This document shows positions 34,094-45,691 of a stretch of 64,000 nucleotides of DNA, one piece after another (the stretch's first letter is position 1; every line of letters begins with the position of its first letter). A program made the position numbers and the translations under genes. The DNA is from Candidatus Omnitrophota bacterium. Lineage in GTDB: Bacteria > Omnitrophota > Gorgyraeia > Velamenicoccales > JABMQK01. Location: assembly GCA_028711115.1 (NCBI GenBank), contig JAQTSV010000001.1:326032-390031 (forward strand). The letters are read 5' to 3'. The notes beneath the pieces were generated by a model that ran no database searches, was not told the DNA's origin, and saw only the letters and a program-made list of their open reading frames with translations.

Positions 34094-34816
34094 ATGCAGT
34101 TATTGGAAGCAAGAAATTTATGCAAGTCTTACAACGGCCGTATGGTGGTAAACGGTGTGGATTTGGAAGTAAAGAGAGGCGAGATCGTCGGTCTCTTAGG
34201 CCCTAACGGTGCAGGAAAGACCACCACTTTTTATATGATTGTGGGAATTATACATGCCGAGAAAGGCAATATTAATTTTGATAATCAGGATATCACGAAT
34301 CTGCCCATACACAGGCGTGCCCGTTTTGGTATAGGTTATCTTGCCCAGGAGAGTTCGGTGTTCAAAAAACTCACCGTAGAAGAAAACATCATGGCGATAT
34401 TGGAAACCCTGCCGCTATCCAGAAGAGAAAGAAAGAAAAGATTGATTAATTTATTAGAGGAATTAAACATTGCCCATCTGGCAAAAAGCAGGGCTTATAC
34501 ATTGTCAGGCGGCGAGAGAAGAAGGCTGGAGATAACCCGCGCATTAGTCACCAACCCGTCGTTTATTTTGTTGGACGAACCATTTTCCGGCATAGACCCG
34601 ATAGTGGTTGCTGACGCGCAGGAGATAATAAAAGGACTAAAGGAGAAAGGGTTGGGAGTTTTGCTGACTGATCATAATGTGCGCGAAACACTATCCATTA
34701 CCGACAGGGCATATTTAATCGCCGACGGAAAAATCCTTATTTCCGGCTCAGCGCACGATTTGGTAAGTAGCCCCAAGGCAAGAGAGATATATTTGGGCGA
34801 AAAATTCAGGATGTGA
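34094..34816 (+). CDS. lptB: LPS export ABC transporter ATP-binding protein
   Basis: 240 aa. Motifs: GLLGPNGAGKTTTFYMIVG, LSGGERRRLEITRAL, ILLDEPFSGIDP. Confidence 0.93.
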   Translation: MQLLEARNLCKSYNGRMVVNGVDLEVKRGEIVGLLGPNGAGKTTTFYMIVGIIHAEKGNINFDNQDITNLPIHRRARFGIGYLAQESSVFKKLTVEENIMAILETLPLSRRERKKRLINLLEELNIAHLAKSRAYTLSGGERRRLEITRALVTNPSFILLDEPFSGIDPIVVADAQEIIKGLKEKGLGVLLTDHNVRETLSITDRAYLIADGKILISGSAHDLVSSPKAREIYLGEKFRM

Positions 34817-34858
34817 TTAACGGCGACTCAATAATTTTTAGATACTACGGGAGAGAAT

Positions 34859-35728
34859 ATGAAGGTAAGCGTAAATAAGCTGGATGCACTGAAGAGAGAA
34901 CTAGATATAGAAGTCAGTCAGGATAGAGTAAAGCAAAAGTTTGATGCCGTATACGAAGAGATAAAGAAGAGTGCCAAAATACCGGGTTTTCGTCCGGGCA
35001 CGGCGCCGCGCAATATCCTGGAAAAACACCACTCAAAACTTGCGCAGGAAGAAGTAATAAGGCAGCTTCTGCCGGAGACATATGAAGATGCTTTAAAGAA
35101 AGAAAATCTGGATGTGATTTCTTTGCCGGAGATAACAGATGTGAATTTAGGCGCTACCCTGCGTTACAAGGCAAAGGTGGAGATACGGCCAGACATCGAC
35201 GTAAAAGATTATAAAAATATCAAAATAAAGAAAAGATCAAATGAGGTAAAAAGTGAAGATTTGGAAAAGGCCCTGGATAACATAAAAAAGTTAAGAAAGG
35301 TAGATGCGATTGGTGATGATTTTGCCCATGGCTTAGGTTACTCAAGCTTAGATGAATTTAAAGAGGCATTAAAGAGACAGCTCGTTATTCAAAAGGAATC
35401 AGAGAATAAGATGCAATTAGAGCGCGAAGTCATAGACCACCTTTTAAAAAATGCAAAATTTACCGTTCCTGAATCTTTGGTAGCGAGGCGATTACATGAA
35501 TTGCATCACGAAGTACACGATTATTTTGCAAAAAACAATATGCCCAAAGAGGAAATCGAGAAAAAAGAAAAGGAATTAGAGCCGAAATTAAAAGATCAGG
35601 CATTAGAAGAAGTAAGGATATTCTTGGTGTTGGATGAAATCGCCAAATTAGAAAAAATTTCCCGGGATGACCACATGCCCAACAGTGTTATGGAGTTTTT
35701 ATTCAAAAATGCAGAGTGGGTGGCATAG
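34859..35728 (+). CDS. tig: Trigger factor, short form lacking the FKBP/PPIase domain
   Basis: 289 aa. The N-terminal ribosome-binding domain carries GFRPGTAP (the GFRxGxxP signature). After ~aa 150 the sequence runs straight into the helical C-terminal arm region. No FKBP-like segment is present. Located upstream of clpP, as is usual. Confidence 0.8.
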   Translation: MKVSVNKLDALKRELDIEVSQDRVKQKFDAVYEEIKKSAKIPGFRPGTAPRNILEKHHSKLAQEEVIRQLLPETYEDALKKENLDVISLPEITDVNLGATLRYKAKVEIRPDIDVKDYKNIKIKKRSNEVKSEDLEKALDNIKKLRKVDAIGDDFAHGLGYSSLDEFKEALKRQLVIQKESENKMQLEREVIDHLLKNAKFTVPESLVARRLHELHHEVHDYFAKNNMPKEEIEKKEKELEPKLKDQALEEVRIFLVLDEIAKLEKISRDDHMPNSVMEFLFKNAEWVA

Positions 35729-35770
35729 ATTAAAAGATTAAAGTCATAGTTTAATAAAAGGAGGTAATAA

Positions 35771-36382
35771 ATGGAGAAGATGCAGACATTGGTTCCTATG
35801 GTAATTGAGCAGACTTCCAGGGGTTATGAAAGGGCTTACGATATTTATTCCCGTCTTCTTAAGGATCGTATCATCTTTGTGGGTACGCCCATCGACGATA
35901 TGATCGCAAATTTAATCATCGCCCAGTTATTATTTTTACAAATGGAAGATGTCAATAAAGACATCAGTATGTATATCAATACGCCGGGCGGATCTGTAAC
36001 CAGCGGTTTGGCAATTTACGATACAATGCAATTTGTGAAATGCGATGTAGCTACATATTGTGTAGGTCAGGCAACCAGTATGGGTGCTTTACTTTTGACT
36101 GCAGGCACAAAAGGAAAGAGATACGGACTGCCGAATTCCCGCATTATGATTCATCAGCCGTGGGGAGGCGTGACCGGCGCAGCGGTCGATATATCCATTC
36201 AGACAAAAGAAATCTTACGCCTGCGTGACAAAATAAACGAAGTACTGGCTTTGCATACAGGGCAGTCTTTAGACAAAATCAAAAAAGATACTGACAGGGA
36301 TTATTTTATGTCGGCTCAGGAAGCAAAAGAATACGGAATTATCGACGAAGTTATCACCGGAAAAGTTAACAAAAAAAAGTAA
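35771..36382 (+). CDS. clpP: ATP-dependent Clp protease proteolytic subunit
   Basis: 203 aa. Motifs: [45 protein letters not shown] (catalytic Ser), IMIHQP. Confidence 0.95.
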
Positions 36383-36425
36383 ATAGATAAATCATCATTC
36401 ATGTTCTTAGGGAGGATAGGATTCA

Positions 36426-37559
36426 ATGAAAAAGAATTATTTGCTTACTCCAGGCCCCACACCATTGCCGCCTTATGTTTGTAAGGCGTTAGCCAAAAAA
36501 ATAATCCATCACCGCACGCCGCAATTCCAGGTCGTATTAAAAGAGGTGGAGGAAAACTTAAAATATGTTTTCCAGACAAAGAACGATGTCTATATCCTTG
36601 CTTCTTCCGGCACAGGCGCAATGGAGGCAGCCGTTGCTAATATAATTTCAGCAAACGACAGAGCCATAGTCATCGACGGCGGAAAATTTGGCGAGAGGTG
36701 GACAGAATTAAACAAAGTGTACGGTGCCAATATAGAATTAGTAAAGGTGGAATGGGGCAAGTCCGTCGATCCCAAAATCATAAAAGATATTTTAGACAAA
36801 GATAAAAATATAAAAGCGGTATTTGCCACGCATTGCGAGACTTCTACGGGAGTTTCCAATGATATCGAAGCATTAGGCAAAATTGTAAAAGATACAAATG
36901 CAATTTTAGTCGTGGATGCGATTAGCAGTTTAGGTGCCATTGATATAAAGACAGATGGCTGGTCGATAGATATGGTGGTCAGCGGTTCGCAGAAAGGACT
37001 GATGCTTCCGCCGGGTCTGGGTTTTATAAGCGTAAGCCCTAAAGCGTATAAGTTGGTTGAGCTCTGCAAGACCCCCAGATATTATTTTGATTTACGACTC
37101 AGCAAAAAGGCCTTAGCGGCTACGGACACTCCTTTTACTCCCGCAATCGGCATAATCATAGCATTAGATGAAGTCCTGAAAGATATGCGCCAGGAGACAC
37201 TGGAGGTAATATTTGCGCGCAATAAAAAACTGGCTCAGTCAACAAGGCAGGCTATGATTAGTCTGGGCTTAGAGTTATACGCCGGAAAAGATTCTTCTGA
37301 TTCGCTTACAGCTGTAAGAGTACCGGAGGGCATCGACGGAGAGAAATTGGTCAAGACCATGCGCGATGAATATGGCGTAGGTATTGCCGGAGGGCAATCA
37401 CAGCTTAAAGGCAAAGTTTTCAGGATAGCACATATGGGTTTTATCAGGGAAAAAGATTTGATAGTCTGTATCGAGACGTTAGAGGAAGTTTTATCCAAGA
37501 TGGGTTATAAGTTCGAAAAAGGAAAAGGCGTCAAAACAATAGAGAAACTTTTAGGCTGA
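36426..37559 (+). CDS. Class V PLP aminotransferase (serine-pyruvate/alanine-glyoxylate type; probably the phosphoserine aminotransferase partner of serA)
   Basis: 377 aa. Motifs: LLTPGPTPLP and VSGSQKGLMLPPGLGF (PLP-lysine motif). Immediately upstream of serA. The exact substrate is inferred from context only. Confidence 0.75.
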   Translation: MKKNYLLTPGPTPLPPYVCKALAKKIIHHRTPQFQVVLKEVEENLKYVFQTKNDVYILASSGTGAMEAAVANIISANDRAIVIDGGKFGERWTELNKVYGANIELVKVEWGKSVDPKIIKDILDKDKNIKAVFATHCETSTGVSNDIEALGKIVKDTNAILVVDAISSLGAIDIKTDGWSIDMVVSGSQKGLMLPPGLGFISVSPKAYKLVELCKTPRYYFDLRLSKKALAATDTPFTPAIGIIIALDEVLKDMRQETLEVIFARNKKLAQSTRQAMISLGLELYAGKDSSDSLTAVRVPEGIDGEKLVKTMRDEYGVGIAGGQSQLKGKVFRIAHMGFIREKDLIVCIETLEEVLSKMGYKFEKGKGVKTIEKLLG

Positions 37560-37578
37560 AATAATCAAGAGGTGCTAC

Positions 37579-39159
37579 ATGTATAAAATTTTAGTCAGTG
37601 ACAAATTATCTGAACAGGGGTTAAAGGTCCTCAAAGAAAATAAAGATTTCAAGGTTGATGTAAAGACCGGTTTAAAACCCGAGGAGCTGAAATCTATAAT
37701 CGGAGATTACGATGCCCTTTTAGTGCGCAGCTCTACGAAGGTCACCAAGGAAATAATCGATGCCAGCAGCCTTAAGATTATTGGCCGCGCCGGCGTAGGC
37801 TTGGATAATGTCGACCTGGAAGCAGCTACGAATAAAGGTATTATTGTAATGAATTCTCCGTCGGGAAATACGATTTCTACGGCAGAGCACACTATGGCTT
37901 TGATGCTTTCATTATCCAGAAATATCGCCGCTGCGGATAAATCCATGAAGGCAAAAGAGTGGAACCGTTCAAAATTTACCGGCGTAGAATTATACAATAA
38001 AACTTTAGGCGTTGTCGGCCTGGGACGCATTGGCCAGGCAGTGTCAAAGAGGGCAATGAGTTTTGGTATGAAGATTATTGCCTATGATCCGTTTCTTTCC
38101 AAGGAAGCCGCGGGAAAATTAGGCATAGAATTGGTGGACTTGAATAAATTATTCTCTGAATCCGACTATATAACTTTCCATGTGCCATTAACTGAAGAGA
38201 CAAAGAACCTGATTTCCTCAAAACAAATTCCCCTGTTAAAGAAAGGCGCGCGCATTATTAATTGTTCACGCGGAGGAATTGTAAACGAGGAAGATTTGGC
38301 CAAGGCCTTGCAGGAAGGAAAAATCGCAGGGGTTTCTCTGGATGTTTATACCAATGAGCCACCCAAGGATTTGCCTTTGGCAAATTTTGACAATGTTGTT
38401 CTCACGCCCCACCTGGGTGCTTCTACTGAAGAGGCCCAGGTCAATGTGGCTGTAGAAATTGCAGAACAGGTAAGGGATGCTCTTTTGGGTTTAGGCATTC
38501 GTAATGCCGCTAATTTTCCGTCGGTGGATACCGAGACCTACAAAGCATTACAACCAATGTTTAACCTGGCAGAGAAGATGGGTTTATTTATGGGCCAGTT
38601 GGCGCAGGGAAGGATAAGTGGTGTAGAAGTAAATTATTCCGGAGAAGTTGCCAAATTCGACACAACTCCCCTGACCATGTCAGTTCTCAAAGGATTGCTT
38701 ACTCCTGTTTTAAAAGATACGGTGAATTTTATTAATGCCCTGTCATTAGCCAAGGAACGCTCCATAAAAGTCACGGAGGAAAAATCAAGCGATGCAGAAG
38801 ATTTTACGAATTTAATTAGCCTGGAGGTTAAAACCGAGGAGAGCAGATTCCGCGTTGCCGGCACGCTTCTTACCAAGAAAGACCCCAGGATAGTCAAGAT
38901 TAACGATTTTTATGTTGAGGCAATCCCCGACGGACATATGCTCATTATTTACGATCTGGACAAACCGGGAATTATCGGCAATCTGGGGACATTATTAGGT
39001 AAGCACGACATAAATATTGCAGGAATGACTTTCGGCAGATTAAAGAAGAGCGGCGAGGCAATAACCGTATTAAATATTGATAGCCAGCCTTCCCCTAAAG
39101 TTTTAGAATCGATTAAAAAATTAAAATACATTAAAGAGGTGAAGGTTATTAAACTATGA
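37579..39159 (+). CDS. serA: D-3-phosphoglycerate dehydrogenase (long form with ASB and ACT domains)
   Basis: 526 aa. Motifs: GRAGVGLDNVDLEAATNKGIIVMNSP, GVVGLGRIGQAV, NCSRGGIV, and a C-terminal ACT domain (HMLIIYDLDKPGIIGNLGTLLG). Confidence 0.93.
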   Translation: MYKILVSDKLSEQGLKVLKENKDFKVDVKTGLKPEELKSIIGDYDALLVRSSTKVTKEIIDASSLKIIGRAGVGLDNVDLEAATNKGIIVMNSPSGNTISTAEHTMALMLSLSRNIAAADKSMKAKEWNRSKFTGVELYNKTLGVVGLGRIGQAVSKRAMSFGMKIIAYDPFLSKEAAGKLGIELVDLNKLFSESDYITFHVPLTEETKNLISSKQIPLLKKGARIINCSRGGIVNEEDLAKALQEGKIAGVSLDVYTNEPPKDLPLANFDNVVLTPHLGASTEEAQVNVAVEIAEQVRDALLGLGIRNAANFPSVDTETYKALQPMFNLAEKMGLFMGQLAQGRISGVEVNYSGEVAKFDTTPLTMSVLKGLLTPVLKDTVNFINALSLAKERSIKVTEEKSSDAEDFTNLISLEVKTEESRFRVAGTLLTKKDPRIVKINDFYVEAIPDGHMLIIYDLDKPGIIGNLGTLLGKHDINIAGMTFGRLKKSGEAITVLNIDSQPSPKVLESIKKLKYIKEVKVIKL

Positions 39160-40967
39160 AAAGAACTCTCATAAACCTATTAGTTGTTATTTTTCTGTTT
39201 AGTTTTATTTCTTTGTCTTTTGCCAAAGAGGAAATTGTCATTGTAGTTTCGGGGCAGTCTCACGCAAGTCTTTATCCTTGCCGATGCCCGCGTGATCCTG
39301 CCGGCGGCGTATCCCGGCGCGCAACTGCGATTAAAAAGATAAGAAACGAAAACAAAAATGTACTGGTTCTGGAAACCGGCGGCAGTTTTGCCGGCGGCAG
39401 TTATGATGGTAGTACACAAACCACAGAAATCGACAAAGAACGCACCAAATTCTACATGGGATCTTTGGCCAAGATGGGTTGCGACGCATTTTTAATTTCC
39501 AGCGAGGAGTTTAATTTCGGGGACGGCTTTTTAAAAGATGCGATGAGCCAATATAAATTTACTTACCTCAGCGCGAATATAAAAGATAATTTTCAGCCAT
39601 ATCTTATAAAAGAAATCGGTGATGTAAAAATCGCAATAATCGGAATAACCAATGCAGAAGTAAAAAGCAAGACGCAGCTTCCCTATGTTTCACCAAAAGA
39701 ATTTTTACCAGCTATCATTAAAGAAGTTAAAGAGGGTAAAAAGGCCGATGTCGTTATGGTATTGAGTTATCTCGGAGAAGAGCAATCCCAGGAAATTCTC
39801 AACGGAATAAAAGGAGTCGATGTTTGGATAGATTCCAATAATCCTTTTAAGTCAGCAAGCAATACAGAAGTAAATGGCGTTGTATTTATCCAGACTGCCT
39901 GGCAGTCGAGAGAACTGACAAAAATAAATCTGACCATAGAACCGGCACAAAGTCTTCAGGGCGATCAGAAGCCGCTTTCTGTCAAAACAGAACACATTGA
40001 TTTGAACAAGGACATAGAAGATGATTCTGAAATCAGCGCAATTATCCCGAGTTGTTTTACTGATAAAGATTGCAGAAAGCCGGGTTTTGTACCTAAGTGC
40101 GAAAACGCAGGAAAATTGGAAGCCAAGTGCATTTTCTCAGAAATAAAGCCCGTCAAATTAACCATAATCAAACCCGTGACGTGCAAGACCTGTAATATCG
40201 AATCCGCGCTTGAAAGAATAAAAAATATGCTGCCTAATTTAGAGGCGGAATATATTACTGAAGATACTAAGGACGCAAAGGCGCTGATAGAAAAACTAAG
40301 AATTAAAATGCTGCCGGCATATTTGATTAATCAGCCGTCGGAAGAAGTTATTTCACAGATAAGCCAGATAGCCAAAAGTGTTGACAGTTATTATGTTCTG
40401 GAGCCGGGTTTCACAGGTGTATCGTATTTAACCGATAGAAAAGAAATACCCAACAGATTAGATGTATTTTTCGATACAGGCACGAAAAATATAACCCAGA
40501 CTTTAGAAGTGCTGCAGTCGCTGAAAAGTAAGAATAAAGATATCGATATGCATATAAATTTCCTGGCCATAGAAGAGCCGGAATCCGGTTTTATTGCTAA
40601 AGGCGGAAGATATGAGATTGAGGAATTTTTACGTGCTGCCTGCATAAATAAATACTATCCGGACAAAATATGGGATTATCTTTCCTGCCGGCTTTCAGAT
40701 ATCGAGAGTTCATGGTGGGACGATTGCACTTTAAAATTCGATATAGATTCGGCTAAGCTAAAAAGCTGCGCTCAGGGCGAGGAAGGCAAAGAGTTGCTGC
40801 GGGGTTTTATAAAACTGACGCAGGAATTGGAAGTTGTTTTCGGCCCCACATTTTTAGTCAACAATAAAGAAATTTTTAGTTCTGAAGGCGTGCCTAGTGT
40901 AGAAGAGCTGGAAAAACTTTTTCCGCCGAAAGCTAAACAGCCACCGGCGGATAATAACGCTAAATAA
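39156..40967 (+). CDS. Exported multidomain hypothetical protein: degenerate 5'-nucleotidase/metallophosphatase-like N-domain, a Cys-rich linker, and CxxC thioredoxin-like and DsbA-like modules
   Basis: 603 aa with a signal peptide (LFSFISLSFA/KEE). The N-domain is colinear with UshA-type nucleotidases, but the metal motifs are replaced: SGQSHAS for DxH, ETGGSF for GD, SSEEFNFG for GNHE. It also carries a PCRCP motif. Middle: CFTDKDCRKPGFVPKCENAGKLEAKC, then TIIKPVTCKTCN (CxxC). C-terminus: FGPTFLVNNKEIF (DsbA-like). Confidence 0.6.
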   Translation: MKRTLINLLVVIFLFSFISLSFAKEEIVIVVSGQSHASLYPCRCPRDPAGGVSRRATAIKKIRNENKNVLVLETGGSFAGGSYDGSTQTTEIDKERTKFYMGSLAKMGCDAFLISSEEFNFGDGFLKDAMSQYKFTYLSANIKDNFQPYLIKEIGDVKIAIIGITNAEVKSKTQLPYVSPKEFLPAIIKEVKEGKKADVVMVLSYLGEEQSQEILNGIKGVDVWIDSNNPFKSASNTEVNGVVFIQTAWQSRELTKINLTIEPAQSLQGDQKPLSVKTEHIDLNKDIEDDSEISAIIPSCFTDKDCRKPGFVPKCENAGKLEAKCIFSEIKPVKLTIIKPVTCKTCNIESALERIKNMLPNLEAEYITEDTKDAKALIEKLRIKMLPAYLINQPSEEVISQISQIAKSVDSYYVLEPGFTGVSYLTDRKEIPNRLDVFFDTGTKNITQTLEVLQSLKSKNKDIDMHINFLAIEEPESGFIAKGGRYEIEEFLRAACINKYYPDKIWDYLSCRLSDIESSWWDDCTLKFDIDSAKLKSCAQGEEGKELLRGFIKLTQELEVVFGPTFLVNNKEIFSSEGVPSVEELEKLFPPKAKQPPADNNAK

Positions 40968-40994
40968 ATTGTAGTCTTATTAAGGAGAACCGTT

Positions 40995-42242
40995 ATGAAT
41001 AAGAAACCCAAAATTCATATTATTGATGTAACCAACAGAGACGGAGTGCAGACGTCGCGGATTTGTCTTTCCAAATTAGAGAAGACAATGATTAATATTT
41101 ACCTTAATGATTTAGGGGTGTTCCAGTCTGAATTTGGTTTTCCCGTAACCCGCCACGAGACGAATTATTTGAATGCAAATTTAGAATTGGTGGAGCTGAA
41201 GGTGCTTAAACCTATACGACTGGAAGGATGGCTGCGTGCAATTCCCAAAGATGTTGATGATGGTTTTAAGTTGGTGCCCAAATTAAAACACGTAAATCTT
41301 TCCATATCGACTTCAGATCAGATGATTGTCCACAAATTTCAGGGTAAGATTAACCATAAATCTGTAATAGAAGAAATGGTTAAGGCCGTGAAATTAGCGA
41401 AATCCAAAGGGGCGGAGAGCGTCGGTGTCAATGCAGAGGATGCCTCCAGAACCCGTATGGAATATTTAATCGAGTTTGCCGGAGCTGCCAAGGAAGCCGG
41501 CGCCTGCCGTATCCGGTATTGTGATACATTGGGATATGATTCCCCTTTCTCTATTTATGAAAGGATAAACAAATTAGCCAAGGAAGTAAAGATAGACATA
41601 GAATTGCACTGTCATAACGATTTGGGTATGGTGGTGGCAAATTCCGTAATGGGGGCAAAGGCAGCCAATGATGCCGGCGTGAATGCCTATATAAATACCT
41701 GCGTAAATGGAATGGGCGAACGTGCCGGCAATGCGGATTTGGTTTCTGTGATACTCGCAATTAAATACGGAAGCGGAATGGAAGGGAAATATTTGCTGGA
41801 TGAACGCATTGATTTAAAGCAGGCGTGGAAATTATGCAAATACGCTTCATACGCATTTGGTGTGCCTATACCTATAAATCAGCCGGGCATAGGAGCCAAT
41901 GCATTCGCACATGAGTCCGGTATCCATGCCGATGGAGCATTAAAGGACAGGCGCAATTACGAGCTTTATGATTTTGAGGAGTTGGGCAGAGGCGAACCGG
42001 AGATTATCGAGACCGGCAGGCAGATTACCGCCGGCGAATATTCCGGGATAAAGGGTTTTAGGAATGTCTTCGATAACTTGGAGATTGAGTTTAAAGACGA
42101 CAAACAGGCAACCAAGATTTTAGAGCTGGTCAGATACGCCAATGTCCATAATCAAAAACCTCTCACAGAAGGCGAACTGCGTTTTATCGCACAGCATCCT
42201 GATATTGCCAATAAGATTTTTACAATGTCGCCGTTAGCTTAA
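40995..42242 (+). CDS. HMGL-like aldolase of the isopropylmalate/homocitrate/citramalate/Re-citrate synthase family (short LeuA paralog without regulatory domain)
   Basis: 415 aa. Motifs: IHIIDVTNRDGVQTS (variant of DTTLRDGEQ), HCHNDLGMVVANSVMG, GERAGNADL, HESGIH. It ends shortly after the catalytic barrel and subdomains. Confidence 0.7.
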   Translation: MNKKPKIHIIDVTNRDGVQTSRICLSKLEKTMINIYLNDLGVFQSEFGFPVTRHETNYLNANLELVELKVLKPIRLEGWLRAIPKDVDDGFKLVPKLKHVNLSISTSDQMIVHKFQGKINHKSVIEEMVKAVKLAKSKGAESVGVNAEDASRTRMEYLIEFAGAAKEAGACRIRYCDTLGYDSPFSIYERINKLAKEVKIDIELHCHNDLGMVVANSVMGAKAANDAGVNAYINTCVNGMGERAGNADLVSVILAIKYGSGMEGKYLLDERIDLKQAWKLCKYASYAFGVPIPINQPGIGANAFAHESGIHADGALKDRRNYELYDFEELGRGEPEIIETGRQITAGEYSGIKGFRNVFDNLEIEFKDDKQATKILELVRYANVHNQKPLTEGELRFIAQHPDIANKIFTMSPLA

Positions 42243-43559
<1,317 letters not shown>

Positions 43560-43592
43560 TAAAGTTATAAATCTTTGCTTTTTAAATAACCC

Positions 43593-43620
43593 TTGACTTA
43601 ATAACTGGATTGTGATAATT
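43593..43620 (+). promoter_or_regulatory. Candidate sigma70-type promoter upstream of the OmpA-family gene
   Basis: TTGACT(43593-43598), followed 15-17 bp later by TGTGATAATT (43611-43620), which is an extended -10-like element. The exact hexamer choice is ambiguous. Confidence 0.4.
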
Positions 43621-43714
43621 TTATATTCACACCATTTTTAGACTCTCAGGATCAAAAATAACATTTTATAAAGTTAACTAATAGGTCTAATCCATAGGCA
43701 AATAGGAGGTTGTA

Positions 43715-44386
43715 ATGAAAGTCAGTACTTTTTTCAAGGTATTTTTAATTTTGGCTTTTTTGGCGAATTTTGCCGGTTGCACGGTTATTTTCCAAAAGGG
43801 AAGAACCTCGGATTTATTAAAGATTCATGAGCTTTCTGATGAAATAGAAAAGCTTAGCAAAGCCAAGGAAACATTGGAGGATAAACTAAAGAAAGAGATC
43901 GACGCTAAAGAAGTAAGTCTTTCCATGCAGGACAAGGGTTTAGTGGTTACTTTTTTATCTGAAGTTTTGTTTGATTCCGGCAAGGCAACCATTAAGAAGA
44001 GCGCCTACGGAAGTTTAGACAAAGTGGCTTCTGTCTTATTGGATGGTGCTGCTGGCATGAATGTAGGAATTGAAGGCCATACTGATAATCAGCCTATCAA
44101 GGTTTCTGGCTGGGAATCCAACTGGGAATTATCTGGTGCCCGCGCAAAGAGCGTATTAAGCTATCTGATTAAAAAGGGCATAGCACCGCAGAGATTATCT
44201 TTCATCGGATACGGTGAATATCGTCCAGTTGCTTCCAACGATAATAGAGAAGGCAGACAGAAGAATCGCAGGGTAGAAATTGTCATACTGCCCAACATAA
44301 CCAAGGCAAAAGCATCCGAAGAAGCGAAGACAGAAGAAACAAAGGCCGACACTCAGCTTAAAGAACCTGTAGAGAATTTAAAATAG
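43715..44386 (+). CDS. OmpA/MotB-family peptidoglycan-binding lipoprotein
   Basis: 223 aa. Lipobox LANFAGC, a coiled-coil linker, and an OmpA C-like domain (FDSGKATIKKSAY, GHTDNQPI, NWELSGARAKSV, GYGEYRPVASNDNREGRQKNRRVEI). Confidence 0.85.
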   Translation: MKVSTFFKVFLILAFLANFAGCTVIFQKGRTSDLLKIHELSDEIEKLSKAKETLEDKLKKEIDAKEVSLSMQDKGLVVTFLSEVLFDSGKATIKKSAYGSLDKVASVLLDGAAGMNVGIEGHTDNQPIKVSGWESNWELSGARAKSVLSYLIKKGIAPQRLSFIGYGEYRPVASNDNREGRQKNRRVEIVILPNITKAKASEEAKTEETKADTQLKEPVENLK

Positions 44387-44451
44387 TAATATTATAGTAT
44401 AGTAAGGTATAATTAAAATCTTGGTTTCCGAATAAAGCAAAAGGAGGCAGC

Positions 44452-44835
44452 ATGGAGTTCAAGAAAGAGGCAGCGTTGGGAGGCAAAGGCAGAATTATAC
44501 TTTTACCTATTTTTATGGTGCTGGCTATAATTGGTTTTATTCTCGCCTTCAACACAGGCGCAGAGGCAGGTAAATATAAAAAACTTTTTGAAAAAGAAAT
44601 GGCCTTCAGATTAGATATGGAAGAGAAGGTCAATAATTTTAGAAATGAAAAAATGTCATTAACTACTGCCTTGCAGGATAAGGATCAGGAGATTGAAAAG
44701 TTAAAGTCAGCCGTCGCGACAAAGGAAAATGACATAACAAAGCTTCAGTCTGATTTAGACCAGATGACTTTGCTCAAGAATAAATTAGAAGAAAATCTAA
44801 AGGAAGAATTGGCTAAAAAGGCCACTGCCCAGTAA
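44452..44835 (+). CDS. Hypothetical single-TM coiled-coil protein
   Basis: 127 aa. SD AAAGGAGG upstream. TM segment IILLPIFMVLAIIGFILAF, followed by heptad-rich, charged sequence. Confidence 0.55.
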   Translation: MEFKKEAALGGKGRIILLPIFMVLAIIGFILAFNTGAEAGKYKKLFEKEMAFRLDMEEKVNNFRNEKMSLTTALQDKDQEIEKLKSAVATKENDITKLQSDLDQMTLLKNKLEENLKEELAKKATAQ

Positions 44836-44890
44836 GCTTTATGAATACAATGGAGTAAGTCTCGCATACATTTAATTTAGCGTAATTCTC

Positions 44891-44916
44891 ACGGGGGAGT
44901 CAAGTCCCCCGTTTTG
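44891..44916 (+). terminator. Rho-independent terminator
   Basis: ACGGGGGA(44891-44898), loop GTCAAG, TCCCCCGT(44905-44912), running into TTTT. It lies 55 nt after the stop at 44835. Confidence 0.75.
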
Positions 44917-44950
44917 GTATGTAGGGTTTTTAGGGGGGGGTGTAATAGAT

Positions 44951-45691
44951 ATGAATCCGGCAAACAAATCAGGAATAATAAAACGTTTCTTGGGAAAAGT
45001 AGCCAATCTGCTTAACAAAGAATTCCAGATTTCTTCTGTCAGATCAAGAAAAACTCATCAAGTCAGTTCTCCTGTCAGATTGGATGAATCTCAGAAGTCG
45101 AAACAGTTTGCAGTCGAGGAATCCAAATATGCTTCTTGGCCGAGAGGTTCGGGTGAACACAGGCCTACAGCCCCGGATTTGCCCGCAGGTTACGGAGACA
45201 ATAAAATCATCCTGCAGATTCGCGATCCCTGGTGGATTCATTCCTATTGGGAAGTGACTCAAAATACAAAAGATAACCTCAGAGAAAGATTAGGCGAGCA
45301 ATATCATAGGGCAAGCTGGGCTTTAAGGGTATACGATGTGAGTTTTATTATTTTTAATGGTAGTAACGCGCATAATTATTTTGATATCTTAATTAATACA
45401 GAGGCCAGTAATTGGTATATTAATGTTTCCAGCGGGCGTTCTTTCTGCGTGGATTTAGGTCTGAAGTTAAAAGACGGAACTTTTATTACGGTTGTGCGTT
45501 CCAACACAGTTACCACTCCTTTAGACGGACCTTCTTGGATTATCGACGAAGAGTGGATGATACCGGATGACGAATTTATGAAATTGTATGGCTTTGGGCC
45601 ATACGGCAGTTCTCCTGTTGGCAAAAGGAGAAGAATCGGTGAATATATTTCTTCTTCCGGATTCTTTCCCAGAAGCGGCAAGAAAAAATAA
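44951..45691 (+). CDS. DUF4912 domain protein (usual partner of GH57 glucan branching enzymes)
   Basis: 246 aa. LPAGYGDNKIILQIRDPWWIHSYWEV matches the DUF4912 core as I remember it. It is followed by a GH57 gene. A G8 run at 44933-44940 acts as the SD region. Confidence 0.7.
   Translation: MNPANKSGIIKRFLGKVANLLNKEFQISSVRSRKTHQVSSPVRLDESQKSKQFAVEESKYASWPRGSGEHRPTAPDLPAGYGDNKIILQIRDPWWIHSYWEVTQNTKDNLRERLGEQYHRASWALRVYDVSFIIFNGSNAHNYFDILINTEASNWYINVSSGRSFCVDLGLKLKDGTFITVVRSNTVTTPLDGPSWIIDEEWMIPDDEFMKLYGFGPYGSSPVGKRRRIGEYISSSGFFPRSGKKK

What the first reader, a model, noticed from the sequence alone, without database searches (positions are those of the whole stretch)
39156..40967. 603-aa exported protein: catalytically dead nucleotidase fold with PCRCP, a Cys-knot-like linker, a CxxC thioredoxin module and a DsbA-like module
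The N-terminal ~270 aa are colinear with UshA/5'-nucleotidase metallophosphatases: a GG(V/L)(S/A)RRAT segment, a LxLxxGxxxxG segment and the FxYLSANI region. Every metal-ligand motif is substituted, however (DxH to SGQSHAS, GD to TGG, GNHE to SSEE), and a C-x-C (YPCRCP) appears at the first motif. Next comes a four-Cys segment (CFTDKDCRKPGFVPKCENAGKLEAKC). A thioredoxin-like unit with an intact CKTC follows. The last part is a DsbA-like unit (…FGPTFLVNNKEIF) that lacks CxxC. Its start overlaps the serA stop (ATGA). This combination of a pseudo-phosphatase scaffold with redox modules in the periplasm is not one I recognise. It could be a thiol-redox or metal/sulfur-handling factor.
Basis: partly seen in the sequence, partly recalled or inferred. 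Interest (0 to 1): 0.6.

Follow-up and report, generated by a model that had tools for sequence, protein, structure and literature searches.

The report
Dead nucleotidase fused to thiol-redox modules
This is a secreted protein found throughout the bacterial phylum Omnitrophota, in which an inactivated nucleotidase-type domain carrying a Cys-x-Cys pair (the second Cys is selenocysteine in related proteins) is fused to a thioredoxin unit and an inactive DsbA/GILT-like unit, so it most likely handles disulfide bonds, not nucleotides.

Summary

The N-terminal ~290 aa have the 5'-nucleotidase fold but have lost the metal and catalytic residues. This domain is not unrecognised. It matches NCBIfam NF041198, 'UshA-like (seleno)protein, PCGU', an orphan CxU selenoprotein family described in 2008. 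Window C44 sits where relatives carry an in-frame TGA (Sec).

The C-terminal half is a 4-Cys hairpin, a thioredoxin fold with CxxC, and a GILT/DsbA-like fold without active-site Cys. It is a separate, widespread unit (about 2,700 representative clusters).

In other bacteria the pseudo-nucleotidase domain is fused to a tetrahaem cytochrome c, to these thioredoxin-type modules, or to both. That points to redox chemistry.

The gene sits in an almost invariant lptB-tig-clpP-aminotransferase-serA-X-synthase-purA block in all 83 Omnitrophota loci examined. Positional orthologs elsewhere in the phylum carry CxxC, no Cys pair, or no N-domain.

Best reading: a periplasmic thiol-disulfide oxidoreductase built on PDI-like logic. 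Substrate and electron direction are unknown. It is a new variant of a known but uncharacterised kind, of moderate interest.

The parts
39156..39224 (+). Signal peptide, aa 1-23 (MKRTLINLLVVIFLFSFISLSFA|KEE). Sec-type, with no twin-arginine motif.
   Evidence: Read directly from the sequence. The n/h/c regions are conserved in all aligned homologs, and AF2 models a helix at 2-20. No signal-peptide predictor was available, so export is inferred.
39225..40025 (+). Pseudo-nucleotidase domain, aa 24-290. It has the fold of the 5'-nucleotidase N-terminal metallophosphatase domain, with the dinuclear metal site and catalytic His lost.
   Evidence: - NF041198 match at E 1.5e-38 and 132.7 bits over aa 6-281.
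- PDB 5'-nucleotidases at E 1e-10.
- Foldseek UshA/CD73 at E ~1e-18.
- Ligand positions are variable, with the bridging Asp kept in 5/83 and the catalytic His in 1/83.
39273..39290 (+). YPCRCP motif, aa 40-45. C42 is TGC at 39279-39281 and C44 is TGC at 39285-39287. This CxC pair is homologous to the PCGU (Cys-Gly-Sec) site of UshA-like selenoproteins.
   Evidence: - C42 and C44 are present in 83/83 orthologs.
- There is an in-frame TGA at the C44-equivalent position in L087 (pos 389, VEPCG*QAKQLGGLARRAT) and in L088 (pos 1690, VDPCG*GTPKGGLARRAT).
- P0208 from L087 passes the NF041198 cut-off.
40047..40133 (+). Four-Cys mini-domain, aa 298-326 (C300, C306, C315, C325; C-x5-C-x8-C-x9-C). It is a beta-hairpin that leads into the thioredoxin sheet.
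   Evidence: - The four Cys are present in 83/83 orthologs.
- The pattern is CCCC in 134 of 135 domain hits among relatives.
- AF2 models strands at 311-316 and 324-329.
- It always travels with the following thioredoxin unit in relatives.
40134..40445 (+). Thioredoxin-fold module, aa 327-430, with CKTC (C343/C346, nt 40182-40193) at the N-cap of helix 1 and a cis-Pro loop (LP387AY).
   Evidence: - Profile against PDB hits PfPDO 1j08/1a8l and thioredoxins at E ~3e-3 on this stretch, with CxxC and the Pro loop aligned.
- AF2 secondary-structure order is beta-[CxxC]-alpha-beta-alpha-[P]beta.
- CxxC is present in 81/83 orthologs and P387 in 83/83.
- The two Cys are kept or lost together in relatives: CC 135, xx 33, xC 1.
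40446..40925 (+). GILT/DsbA-like thioredoxin fold with a helical insertion, aa 431-590. The active-site Cys segment is replaced (FFDTGTKNI). It has four conserved Cys (C496, C511, C524, C538) and a cis-Pro loop (GP564TF).
   Evidence: - Foldseek hits mouse GILT 6nwx at E 6e-8 and many DsbA at ~1e-6.
- BLASTP against P0057 gives 30% identity, E 8e-48, with 'FVMSQCPYG' aligned to 'FFDT----G'.
- Relatives hit Pfam GILT and DSBA.
- Co-loss patterns (CxxC 17, xCCx 13, xxxx 56) imply disulfides C496-C538 and C511-C524.
40926..40967 (+). Low-confidence C-terminal tail (aa 591-603, PPKAKQPPADNNAK) plus the stop codon.
   Evidence: pLDDT is below 50 for 594-603. The tail is absent from most homologs.
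37579..39159 (+). Upstream gene serA (D-3-phosphoglycerate dehydrogenase). Its stop overlaps the start of the ORF.
   Evidence: TIGR01327 match at E 2.5e-209. The overlap is shown. The serA-X adjacency holds in 78 of the 83 loci; of the other five, four are cut off upstream and one (L082) has upstream sequence without serA.

Best explanation
The protein is a Sec-exported, periplasmic, multi-domain thiol-disulfide oxidoreductase built like a PDI, with active and inactive thioredoxin-type units on a scaffold. It has two candidate redox-active cysteine pairs.

1. C343-x-x-C346 lies at the helix N-cap of a thioredoxin fold.
2. C42-x-C44 lies on a loop just after the former first metal motif of a 5'-nucleotidase-fold domain that no longer binds the two catalytic metals.

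The CxC is the Cys version of the Cys-x-Sec site of the UshA-like selenoproteins, so it is most likely a catalytic redox pair rather than a structural one.

**Proposed working:** a substrate thiol or disulfide (most likely protein; a small sulfur or selenium compound is also possible) reacts at one pair. Electrons are exchanged with the second pair within the same polypeptide, and then with an unidentified partner. In relatives that partner function is supplied by a fused tetrahaem cytochrome c.

The other eight cysteines form four structural disulfides: two in the 4-Cys hairpin, plus C496-C538 and C511-C524. The last GILT/DsbA-like unit is non-catalytic and probably binds substrate or stabilises the protein.

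**Shown:**
- the domain folds;
- the loss of the phosphatase residues;
- the Cys/Sec correspondence;
- the conservation and co-loss patterns;
- the fusion partners in relatives;
- the phylum-wide synteny.

**Inferred:**
- export;
- disulfide pairing;
- redox activity of either pair;
- the intramolecular relay;
- the direction of electron flow;
- the substrate.
For: - **Fold and dead phosphatase site:**
- **Cys pair conservation:** C42 and C44 are present in 83/83 species orthologs at 34-58% identity.
- **Sec correspondence:** the homologous position is an in-frame TGA in PCGU genes. One of these passes the NF041198 cut-off. The family is listed in the literature as a CxU selenoprotein.
- **Motif interchange:** in positional orthologs the motif becomes PCG[RH]CP, i.e. 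CxxC. That is typical of redox pairs.
- **Thioredoxin module:** it has CxxC and a cis-Pro loop. CxxC is present in 81/83 orthologs, and the two Cys are lost only together.
- **Fusion logic:** the same N-domain is fused to a tetrahaem cytochrome c in NF041198-like proteins. It is fused to GILT(CPYG)+4Cys+Trx units in ~790-aa proteins, and to both in P0139.
- **Export route:** the Sec-type signal peptide without RR argues against a cofactor inserted in the cytoplasm, such as an Fe-S cluster.
- **Structural Cys:** paired co-loss of C496/C538 and of C511/C524 fits structural disulfides.
Against: - No biochemical evidence exists for this protein or for any member of the UshA-like selenoprotein family.
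- Positional orthologs in the same syntenic slot lack the N-domain Cys pair (P0055) or the whole N-domain (P0074). The CxC therefore cannot be essential to the function of the orthologous group.
- Two of 83 orthologs lack the CxxC.
- pTM falls from 0.79 for the C-half to 0.62 for the full length, and no model coordinates were available. Nothing shows that the two Cys pairs can approach each other.
- From my own knowledge, not tested here: the same loop carries a purely structural disulfide in eukaryotic ecto-5'-nucleotidase (CD73).
- No redox partner (DsbB, VKOR, DsbD or CcdA) was identified. The synteny is with housekeeping genes and gives no information on function.
Confidence: 0.5

Rival explanations
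1. Only the thioredoxin CxxC is catalytic. The pseudo-nucleotidase domain is a substrate-binding, chaperone or spacer scaffold, comparable to the b/b' domains of PDI or the dimerisation domain of DsbC. Its CxC is a structural or regulatory disulfide.
For: - The C-half alone exists as a stand-alone exported protein and as the positional ortholog next to serA (P0074; P0056).
- Orthologs with an N-domain but no Cys pair keep all ten other Cys (P0055).
- The C-half is far more widespread than the fusion (2,691 representative clusters).
- pLDDT of the CxC loop is only ~75.
Against: - C42 and C44 are present in 83/83 orthologs in this clade while the surrounding former ligand positions drift.
- Selenocysteine at the homologous position in relatives is not expected for a structural disulfide.
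- In ~790-aa relatives the N-domain CxC is kept while the Trx CxxC is lost.
Confidence: 0.2
2. The N-domain acts on a small inorganic or organic sulfur, selenium or metalloid compound (polysulfide, thiosulfonate, selenite, arsenate) or binds a soft metal through CxC. It would be a thiol-based descendant of SoxB-type chemistry, re-reduced by the thioredoxin module.
For: - The N-domain also matches thiosulfohydrolase SoxB (E 5.6e-14; up to 1e-33 for relatives).
- Relatives are fused to multihaem cytochromes typical of anaerobic respiratory chains.
- Some deeper-branching orthologs retain a partial ligand set, E-x-H, D-D-E, H, G-H.
- From general knowledge: CxC motifs bind Cu(I)/Zn in other proteins, and Sec serves as a metal ligand in some enzymes.
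Against: - The partial ligand set is not conserved. There are 64 different combinations in 83 sequences, and the window protein has Q,H,G,S,E,Y,N.
- There are no sulfur, selenium or arsenic metabolism genes in the conserved neighbourhood.
- The gene is a phylum-wide syntenic core gene, which fits a housekeeping role better than a niche respiratory one.
- SoxB scores are far below its cut-off (51 against 550 bits).
Confidence: 0.18
3. It is a non-enzymatic envelope protein in which all twelve cysteines form structural disulfides that stabilise a secreted multi-domain scaffold.
For: - It is an exported protein.
- Cys are lost in pairs.
- No partner or substrate was identified.
- The neighbourhood includes envelope genes (lptB, OmpA-like).
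Against: - A CxxC at the canonical thioredoxin active-site position together with the cis-Pro loop is a catalytic signature.
- There is a Sec/Cys correspondence at C44.
- A CxC disulfide is strained and rarely structural (general knowledge).
Confidence: 0.08
4. It is an ordinary periplasmic 5'-nucleotidase or phosphoesterase whose catalytic residues were mis-aligned.
For: The fold and several family motifs (GGxxRRAT, LSANI) match 5'-nucleotidases.
Against: - HMM and structure-based alignments agree that the DxH, GD and GNHE equivalents are QxH, GG and SSEE.
- The bridging Asp is kept in 5/83 orthologs and the catalytic His in 1/83.
- There are no Pfam Metallophos or 5_nucleotid_C hits.
- The substrate-binding C-terminal domain is absent and is replaced by thioredoxin-type modules.
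Confidence: 0.02

Closest known systems
UshA-like (seleno)protein, PCGU family (NCBIfam NF041198; 'COG0737 UshA-like, CxU' selenoprotein of Zhang & Gladyshev 2008, PMC2398784; reviewed in PMC9312934 and PMC13188914)
   Same: - The N-terminal pseudo-nucleotidase domain is homologous (E 1.5e-38).
- A Cys-x-Cys/Sec pair sits at the same position after the first motif, followed by GGxxRRAT.
- The protein is exported.
- The function is unknown.
   Different: - The window protein scores 132.7 bits against a cut-off of 275.
- It has Cys (TGC) where the family has Sec, and PCRC where the family has PCG[U/C].
- It lacks the C-terminal tetrahaem cytochrome c domain of that family (no CxxCH). It carries a 4-Cys hairpin, a CxxC thioredoxin unit and an inactive GILT/DsbA-like unit in its place.
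5'-nucleotidase / UDP-sugar hydrolase UshA, CD73 (metallophosphatase N-domain + 5_nucleotid_C)
   Same: - The N-terminal domain has the same fold (Foldseek E ~1e-18, ~310-330 aligned columns).
- Framework motifs GGxARxAT and LSAN are shared.
- Both are located outside the cytoplasm.
   Different: - The dinuclear metal ligands and the catalytic His-Asp dyad are substituted.
- The nucleotide-binding C-terminal domain is absent.
- There is no Pfam hit to PF00149 or PF02872.
Thiosulfohydrolase SoxB (TIGR04486)
   Same: It belongs to the same 5'-nucleotidase superfamily, recruited there to periplasmic sulfur chemistry. There is weak sequence similarity (E 5.6e-14).
   Different: SoxB keeps a dimanganese site and acts hydrolytically on SoxY-bound thiosulfonate. 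Here the metal site is lost. The score is 51 bits against a cut-off of 550, and there are no sox genes nearby.
GILT (PF03227) and DsbA (PF01323) thioredoxin folds with a helical insertion
   Same: - The last module has the same fold (mouse GILT 6nwx E 6e-8; DsbA ~1e-6).
- It has a cis-Pro loop and Cys in the helical insertion.
- Close relatives of the module hit Pfam GILT and DSBA.
   Different: The active-site Cys motif is missing (FFDTGTKNI in place of CxxC or SQCPYG), so the module cannot act as an oxidoreductase on its own.
Pyrococcus furiosus protein disulfide oxidoreductase (1A8L/1J08) and eukaryotic PDI
   Same: Thioredoxin-type units occur in tandem in one polypeptide. The first unit aligns with the N-terminal unit of PfPDO, including CxxC and the Pro loop (E ~3e-3). 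The design logic of an active unit plus an inactive unit is PDI-like.
   Different: - Sequence similarity is marginal.
- The second unit is GILT/DsbA-like and inactive.
- There is an extra 4-Cys hairpin and a large pseudo-enzyme domain carrying its own Cys pair.
CxC redox motifs (Mia40 CPC, Erv2 CGC, synthetic CGC PDI mimics). This comparison comes from general knowledge and was not tested here.
   Same: Two Cys separated by one residue, proposed to form a strained, reactive disulfide used for thiol-disulfide exchange.
   Different: The protein folds are unrelated. No evidence here shows that C42-C44 actually forms a disulfide.

Membership tests
NF041198 UshA-like (seleno)protein, PCGU (equivalog) | Whole-protein score at or above the curated cut-off (275 bits) | tested here: not met
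   132.7 bits, with only profile positions 3-289 of 519 matched.
NF041198 UshA-like (seleno)protein, PCGU (equivalog) | Homologous N-terminal UshA-like domain | tested here: met
   E 1.5e-38 over aa 6-281. This is the best NCBIfam hit, ahead of all true nucleotidase models.
NF041198 UshA-like (seleno)protein, PCGU (equivalog) | P-C-G-[U/C] pair at the conserved position before GGxxRRAT | tested here: met
   The window has P41-C42-R43-C44, so the Cys-x-Cys spacing is kept with R for G. TGA is found at the C44-equivalent position in L087 and L088. PCGC is found in P0216 and P0217.
NF041198 UshA-like (seleno)protein, PCGU (equivalog) | C-terminal multihaem (CxxCH) cytochrome c554-like domain | tested here: not met
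   The window protein and its orthologs have zero CxxCH motifs. Profile positions 343-519 of NF041198 match the cytochrome parts of P0200 and P0151.
Selenoprotein | In-frame UGA decoded as Sec | tested here: not met
   Codon 44 is TGC (39285-39287). All 83 orthologs have Cys.
5'-nucleotidase / calcineurin-like metallophosphatase | Metal-ligand and catalytic motifs DxH, GD, GNH[ED], H, GHxH | tested here: not met
   The equivalents are QxH, GG, SSEE, Y, SNN. The bridging Asp is kept in 5/83 orthologs and the catalytic His in 1/83. There is no PF00149 hit.
5'-nucleotidase / calcineurin-like metallophosphatase | Fold of the N-terminal domain | tested here: met
   Foldseek gives E ~1e-18 to 2ush, 1ush, CD73 and 2z1a.
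5'-nucleotidase / calcineurin-like metallophosphatase | C-terminal substrate-binding domain (PF02872) | tested here: not met
   There is no Pfam hit. Residues 293-603 fold as a 4-Cys hairpin, a Trx unit and a GILT/DsbA-like unit.
Thioredoxin-fold thiol-disulfide oxidoreductase (module aa 327-430) | Thioredoxin fold with CxxC at the N-terminus of helix 1 and a cis-Pro loop before strand 3 | tested here: met
   The profile aligns C343xxC346 and LP387A with the CxxC and Pro loop of PfPDO and thioredoxins (E 3e-3 to 2e-2). The AF2 secondary-structure order fits and pLDDT is ~90. The sequence-level E-values are marginal.
Thioredoxin-fold thiol-disulfide oxidoreductase (module aa 327-430) | Demonstrated redox activity | not testable with these tools
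   This needs biochemical assays.
DsbA / GILT (module aa 431-590) | Thioredoxin fold with a helical insertion | tested here: met
   Foldseek hits GILT 6nwx at E 6e-8 and DsbA 1bed/3bci at ~2e-6. Ten of 21 family members hit PF01323 weakly.
DsbA / GILT (module aa 431-590) | Active-site CxxC (or CPYG in the bacterial relatives) | tested here: not met
   'LDVFFDTGTKNI' aligns with 'LDLFVMSQCPYG' of P0057 across a gap at the Cys. Positions 441-444 are never Cys in the 83 orthologs.
Cystine knot | Six Cys forming three disulfides with a threaded topology | tested here: not met
   The segment has only four Cys (C300, C306, C315, C325), modelled as a beta-hairpin. Disulfide connectivity could not be read because no coordinates were returned.

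The most novel reading that the evidence does not exclude
The 5'-nucleotidase-fold domain with Cys-x-Cys/Sec would be a previously unrecognised class of extracytoplasmic redox catalytic domain: a metallophosphatase fold converted to thiol/selenol chemistry. It would be wired either to haems or to thioredoxin-type modules. In Omnitrophota the fused protein would be the core periplasmic disulfide-handling enzyme, taking the place of a classical DsbA/DsbC-type system.
Probability: 0.2. Interest if true: 0.75.

Novelty: new variant of a known kind. Interest (0 to 1): 0.5.

Why it matters
The UshA-like CxU selenoprotein family has been listed in selenoproteome surveys since 2008 without any proposed function.

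This work shows three things about its pseudo-nucleotidase domain:
- It has lost the phosphatase site.
- It keeps a Cys-x-Cys/Sec pair.
- It is fused in different bacteria to a tetrahaem cytochrome, to thioredoxin/GILT-type modules, or to both.

Together these turn an orphan family into a concrete, testable hypothesis: an extracytoplasmic redox catalyst with interchangeable electron-relay modules.

For Omnitrophota, a poorly understood and largely uncultivated phylum, the work identifies a conserved, syntenic, secreted thiol-redox protein. It is a candidate for envelope protein folding or redox maintenance. It is also a clean example of an enzyme fold repurposed as a pseudo-enzyme carrying a new active site.

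Tried and rejected
- **Pfam on the whole protein and on the C-half:** only noise (SF-assemblin, CUE, DUF4518). These hits were rejected.
- **Ordinary nucleotidase:** rejected on ligand loss and the missing C-terminal domain.
- **Cystine knot for the 4-Cys segment:** rejected because it has only four Cys.
- **Fe-S or other cofactor inserted in the cytoplasm and bound by the 12 Cys:** considered unlikely, because the signal peptide is Sec-type without a twin-arginine motif. This is sequence inspection only.
- **Gene neighbourhood as a functional clue:** the serA overlap looked suggestive. However, the whole 11-gene block from lptB to DUF4912 keeps nearly the same order in all 83 Omnitrophota loci examined. 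It reflects lineage-wide gene order and not a specific link, so it was not used for function.
- **Promoter and terminator scan of 34-45 kb:** counts are at shuffle level, and the first convincing + strand terminator comes only at 44891-44912. This adds nothing beyond likely co-transcription.
- **Paralogs in the window:** none found with HMMs of either half.
- **Literature:** searches on Omnitrophota plus disulfide, and on COG0737 plus selenocysteine, gave only catalogue mentions and no functional study.
- **Context of stand-alone and ~790-aa relatives:** the contigs are mostly too short. The only hint is an AhpC/Redoxin gene downstream of P0068.
- **Geometry of the two Cys pairs:** could not be examined, because structure prediction returns no coordinates.

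Full report
**1. The observation**

The ORF at 39156..40967 (+) is real and encodes 603 aa. Its ATG overlaps the TGA of the upstream phosphoglycerate dehydrogenase gene (ATGA), and a purine-rich ribosome-binding sequence lies just upstream. The N-terminus, MKRTLINLLVVIFLFSFISLSFA|KEE, reads as a Sec-type signal peptide without a twin-arginine motif. The same pattern occurs in all aligned homologs. This is inspection only, because no predictor was available.

**2. The N-terminal domain (aa ~24-290)**

- Pfam finds nothing.
- phmmer against PDB sequences finds 5'-nucleotidases at E 7.5e-11 to 2e-8 over aa 45-232.
- The AlphaFold2 model of the whole protein (pLDDT 87.1, pTM 0.62) matches E. coli UshA, human CD73 and T. 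thermophilus 5'-nucleotidase at Foldseek E ~1e-18 over 310-330 columns.

In the HMM alignment to the Thermus enzyme, DxH becomes QxH, GD becomes GG and GNHE becomes SSEE.

I extracted the orthologs from 83 loci (80 species-representative genomes and 3 metagenome contigs; 82 orthologs plus the window protein itself), at 34-58% identity to the window protein. The bridging Asp is retained in 5, the catalytic His in 1, and the seven ligand positions show 64 different combinations. The nucleotide-binding C-terminal domain of true 5'-nucleotidases is absent. The 'dead nucleotidase fold' claim is confirmed.

**3. The domain is a catalogued family**

The best NCBIfam hit is NF041198, 'UshA-like (seleno)protein', model name UshA_like_PCGU (E 1.5e-38, 132.7 bits, profile positions 3-289 of 519, cut-off 275). 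This corresponds to the 'COG0737, UshA-like, CxU' selenoprotein found in the Global Ocean Sampling selenoproteome (PMC2398784). Two later reviews list it without a function (PMC9312934, PMC13188914).

I checked the Cys/Sec correspondence directly. Two relatives had been called as ORFs truncated at the 5' end. In both, the upstream frame continues through an in-frame TGA:
- VEPCG*QAKQLGGLARRAT (L087, TGA at position 389);
- VDPCG*GTPKGGLARRAT (L088, TGA at position 1690).

The L087 protein passes the NF041198 cut-off (281.7 bits). Window P41-C42-R43-C44 therefore aligns with P-C-G-Sec, and C44 is the Sec position. C42 and C44 are present in 83 of 83 orthologs.

**4. What the rest of NF041198 is**

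Cys-form relatives (P0200, P0214, P0216, P0217) have [PST]CGC followed by GGxxR. Three of the four (P0200, P0216, P0217) carry four C-terminal CxxCH motifs, and all four match Pfam Cytochrome_C554. Profile positions ~343-519 of NF041198 align to that cytochrome part. The canonical family is therefore a pseudo-nucleotidase domain plus a tetrahaem cytochrome c. The window protein has no CxxCH. It is not a member of that equivalog, but it shares its N-domain.

**5. The C-terminal half (aa 293-603)**

An AlphaFold2 model built from a 21-sequence alignment is confident (pLDDT 88.7, pTM 0.79). It contains three parts.

- **Four-Cys beta-hairpin.** It holds C300, C306, C315 and C325, present in 83/83 orthologs and in 134/135 related domains. 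It is not a cystine knot.
- **Thioredoxin fold.** C343-K-T-C346 sits at the N-cap of helix 1, and P387 is invariant. A profile search of PDB sequences aligns both features with the N-terminal unit of Pyrococcus protein disulfide oxidoreductase and with thioredoxins, at E 3e-3 to 2e-2. This is marginal by sequence but consistent with the model.
- **Thioredoxin fold with a helical insertion.** Foldseek matches it to mouse GILT (E 6e-8) and many DsbA structures (~1e-6). Its active-site segment is missing: 'LDVFFDT----GTKNI' aligns with 'LDLFVMSQCPYGVQAV' of relative P0057 (30% identity over 290 aa, E 8e-48).

Across related domains the patterns are CCCC 149, xxxx 56, CxxC 17 and xCCx 13. That implies disulfides C496-C538 and C511-C524.

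**6. The C-half is an independent, widespread unit**

An exhaustive profile search of 1.84 billion representatives found 2,691 clusters at E<=1e-3 and 550 at E<=1e-30. The unit occurs:
- alone as a ~340-aa exported protein (P0056, P0074);
- behind GILT/DsbA-like units with an SQCPYG motif;
- behind DUF1573;
- with multihaem cytochromes (P0151, P0171);
- in ~790-aa proteins made of UshA-like CxC domain + GILT(CPYG) + 4-Cys + Trx (here without CxxC) + GILT-like (P0068, P0069, P0104, P0137 and others).

One cluster of that ~790-aa type is annotated as Latescibacterota. P0139 (1,207 aa) combines the CxC domain, the thioredoxin-type modules and a cytochrome.

So the pseudo-nucleotidase domain is found fused to haem electron carriers, to thiol electron carriers, or to both. 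This is the strongest indirect argument that its Cys-x-Cys/Sec is a redox site.

**7. Distribution and context**

The close full-length homologs that carry a source name are Candidatus Omnitrophota (one is filed only as 'bacterium'), and the window matches an Omnitrophica MAG protein at 100% on a 1.57-Mb contig. A scan of one genome per GTDB species found relatives in 160 stretches of genome sequence. Nearly all of the best 80 are Omnitrophota records; about a dozen are TPA assemblies labelled 'uncultured Planctomycetales/Planctomycetia', and one is labelled only 'bacterium'.

In these loci the gene order lptB-tig-clpP-class V aminotransferase-serA-X-HMGL-like synthase-purA-OmpA-like-DUF4912 is almost invariant. 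That makes X a phylum-wide syntenic core gene. It also means the serA overlap says nothing specific about function. No paralog is present in the window. A promoter and terminator scan adds only that co-transcription with the neighbours is likely.

**8. A caveat from positional orthologs**

Other Omnitrophota carry different N-domain states in the same slot after serA:
- P0145 has PCGHCP, a CxxC.
- P0055 has an N-domain with no Cys pair but keeps all ten other Cys.
- P0074 has no N-domain at all (serA-P0074-purA).

Two of the 83 orthologs lack the Trx CxxC. The C-half is therefore the conserved core of the orthologous group. The N-domain Cys pair is strictly conserved only within the window's clade.

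**9. Mechanism**

The best-supported reading (confidence ~0.5) is a Sec-exported periplasmic thiol-disulfide oxidoreductase of PDI-like design. It would have two redox-active pairs, CxC on the pseudo-enzyme domain and CxxC on the thioredoxin unit. It would also have an inactive GILT/DsbA-like unit and four structural disulfides.

Shown here: the folds, the loss of phosphatase residues, the Sec correspondence, the conservation and co-loss patterns, and the fusion partners.

Inferred: export, disulfide pairing, redox activity, the intramolecular relay, the direction of electron flow and the substrate.

Rivals:
- Only the CxxC is catalytic and the N-domain is a scaffold (0.2).
- The N-domain carries out small-molecule sulfur, selenium or metal chemistry inherited from the SoxB side of the superfamily (0.18).
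- The protein is purely structural (0.08).
- It is a real nucleotidase (0.02).

The drop in pTM from 0.79 to 0.62 for the full length, and the lack of model coordinates, mean the geometry between the two Cys pairs is unknown.

**10. Verdict**

The Omnitrophota architecture is a new variant of it. Interest is moderate (0.5). It offers a testable functional hypothesis for an orphan selenoprotein family and a candidate envelope redox factor for an uncultivated phylum, but no new kind of system is demonstrated.

Noticed in passing
window 34859-35728 (+): The trigger factor gene encodes only 289 aa. It matches TIGR00115 in two stretches, and orthologs have Pfam Trigger_N and Trigger_C but no PPIase (FKBP) domain. 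Omnitrophota appear to have a PPIase-less trigger factor.
   Followed up: partly
window 34094-45691 (+); loci L001-L083: An 11-gene block (lptB, tig, clpP, class V aminotransferase, serA, X, HMGL-like synthase, purA, OmpA-like, a small ORF, DUF4912) keeps the same order and strand in nearly all 83 Omnitrophota loci examined, despite ~35-40% protein identity.
   Followed up: yes
window 40995-42242 (+): The HMGL-like synthase downstream of X scores below every NCBIfam cut-off. Its best hit is nifV homocitrate synthase at 277 bits against 462.9, followed by isopropylmalate and citramalate synthases, so its substrate is unassigned. It is missing from some orthologous loci (L086, L089).
   Followed up: no
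P0057, P0067, P0082, P0086 and other relatives (not in the window): GILT/DsbA-like modules of relatives carry a single-Cys 'SQCPYG' motif. P0057 weakly matches NF041057, 'Rcas_1661 family thioredoxin-like (seleno)lipoprotein'. A second module type in this protein network therefore also has selenoprotein relatives.
   Followed up: partly
P0139 (1,207 aa; not in the window): A single protein combines the UshA-like CxC domain, GILT/DsbA-like and 4-Cys+Trx modules, and a C-terminal cytochrome c554-like domain with four CxxCH. It is a 'Rosetta stone' linking all the module types.
   Followed up: partly
L089 4285-4980: In the locus of the no-Cys ortholog P0055, an extra 231-aa ORF without any Pfam hit lies between serA and the X ortholog, and the HMGL-like gene is absent.
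   Followed up: no
loci L006, L008, L019, L027, L033, L034, L040, L049, L054, L055, L057, L062: TPA metagenome assemblies titled 'uncultured Planctomycetales/Planctomycetia bacterium' carry the Omnitrophota-type gene and the same gene order as far as each contig extends (L006 ends inside X). The taxonomic labels are probably imprecise.
   Followed up: no
window 44452-44835 (+) and 44951-45691 (+): Two conserved ORFs downstream (127 aa with no family hit, and 246 aa whose orthologs carry DUF4912) have no NCBIfam match. The only convincing + strand terminator-like hairpin in the 34-45 kb stretch lies between them, at 44891-44912.
   Followed up: no
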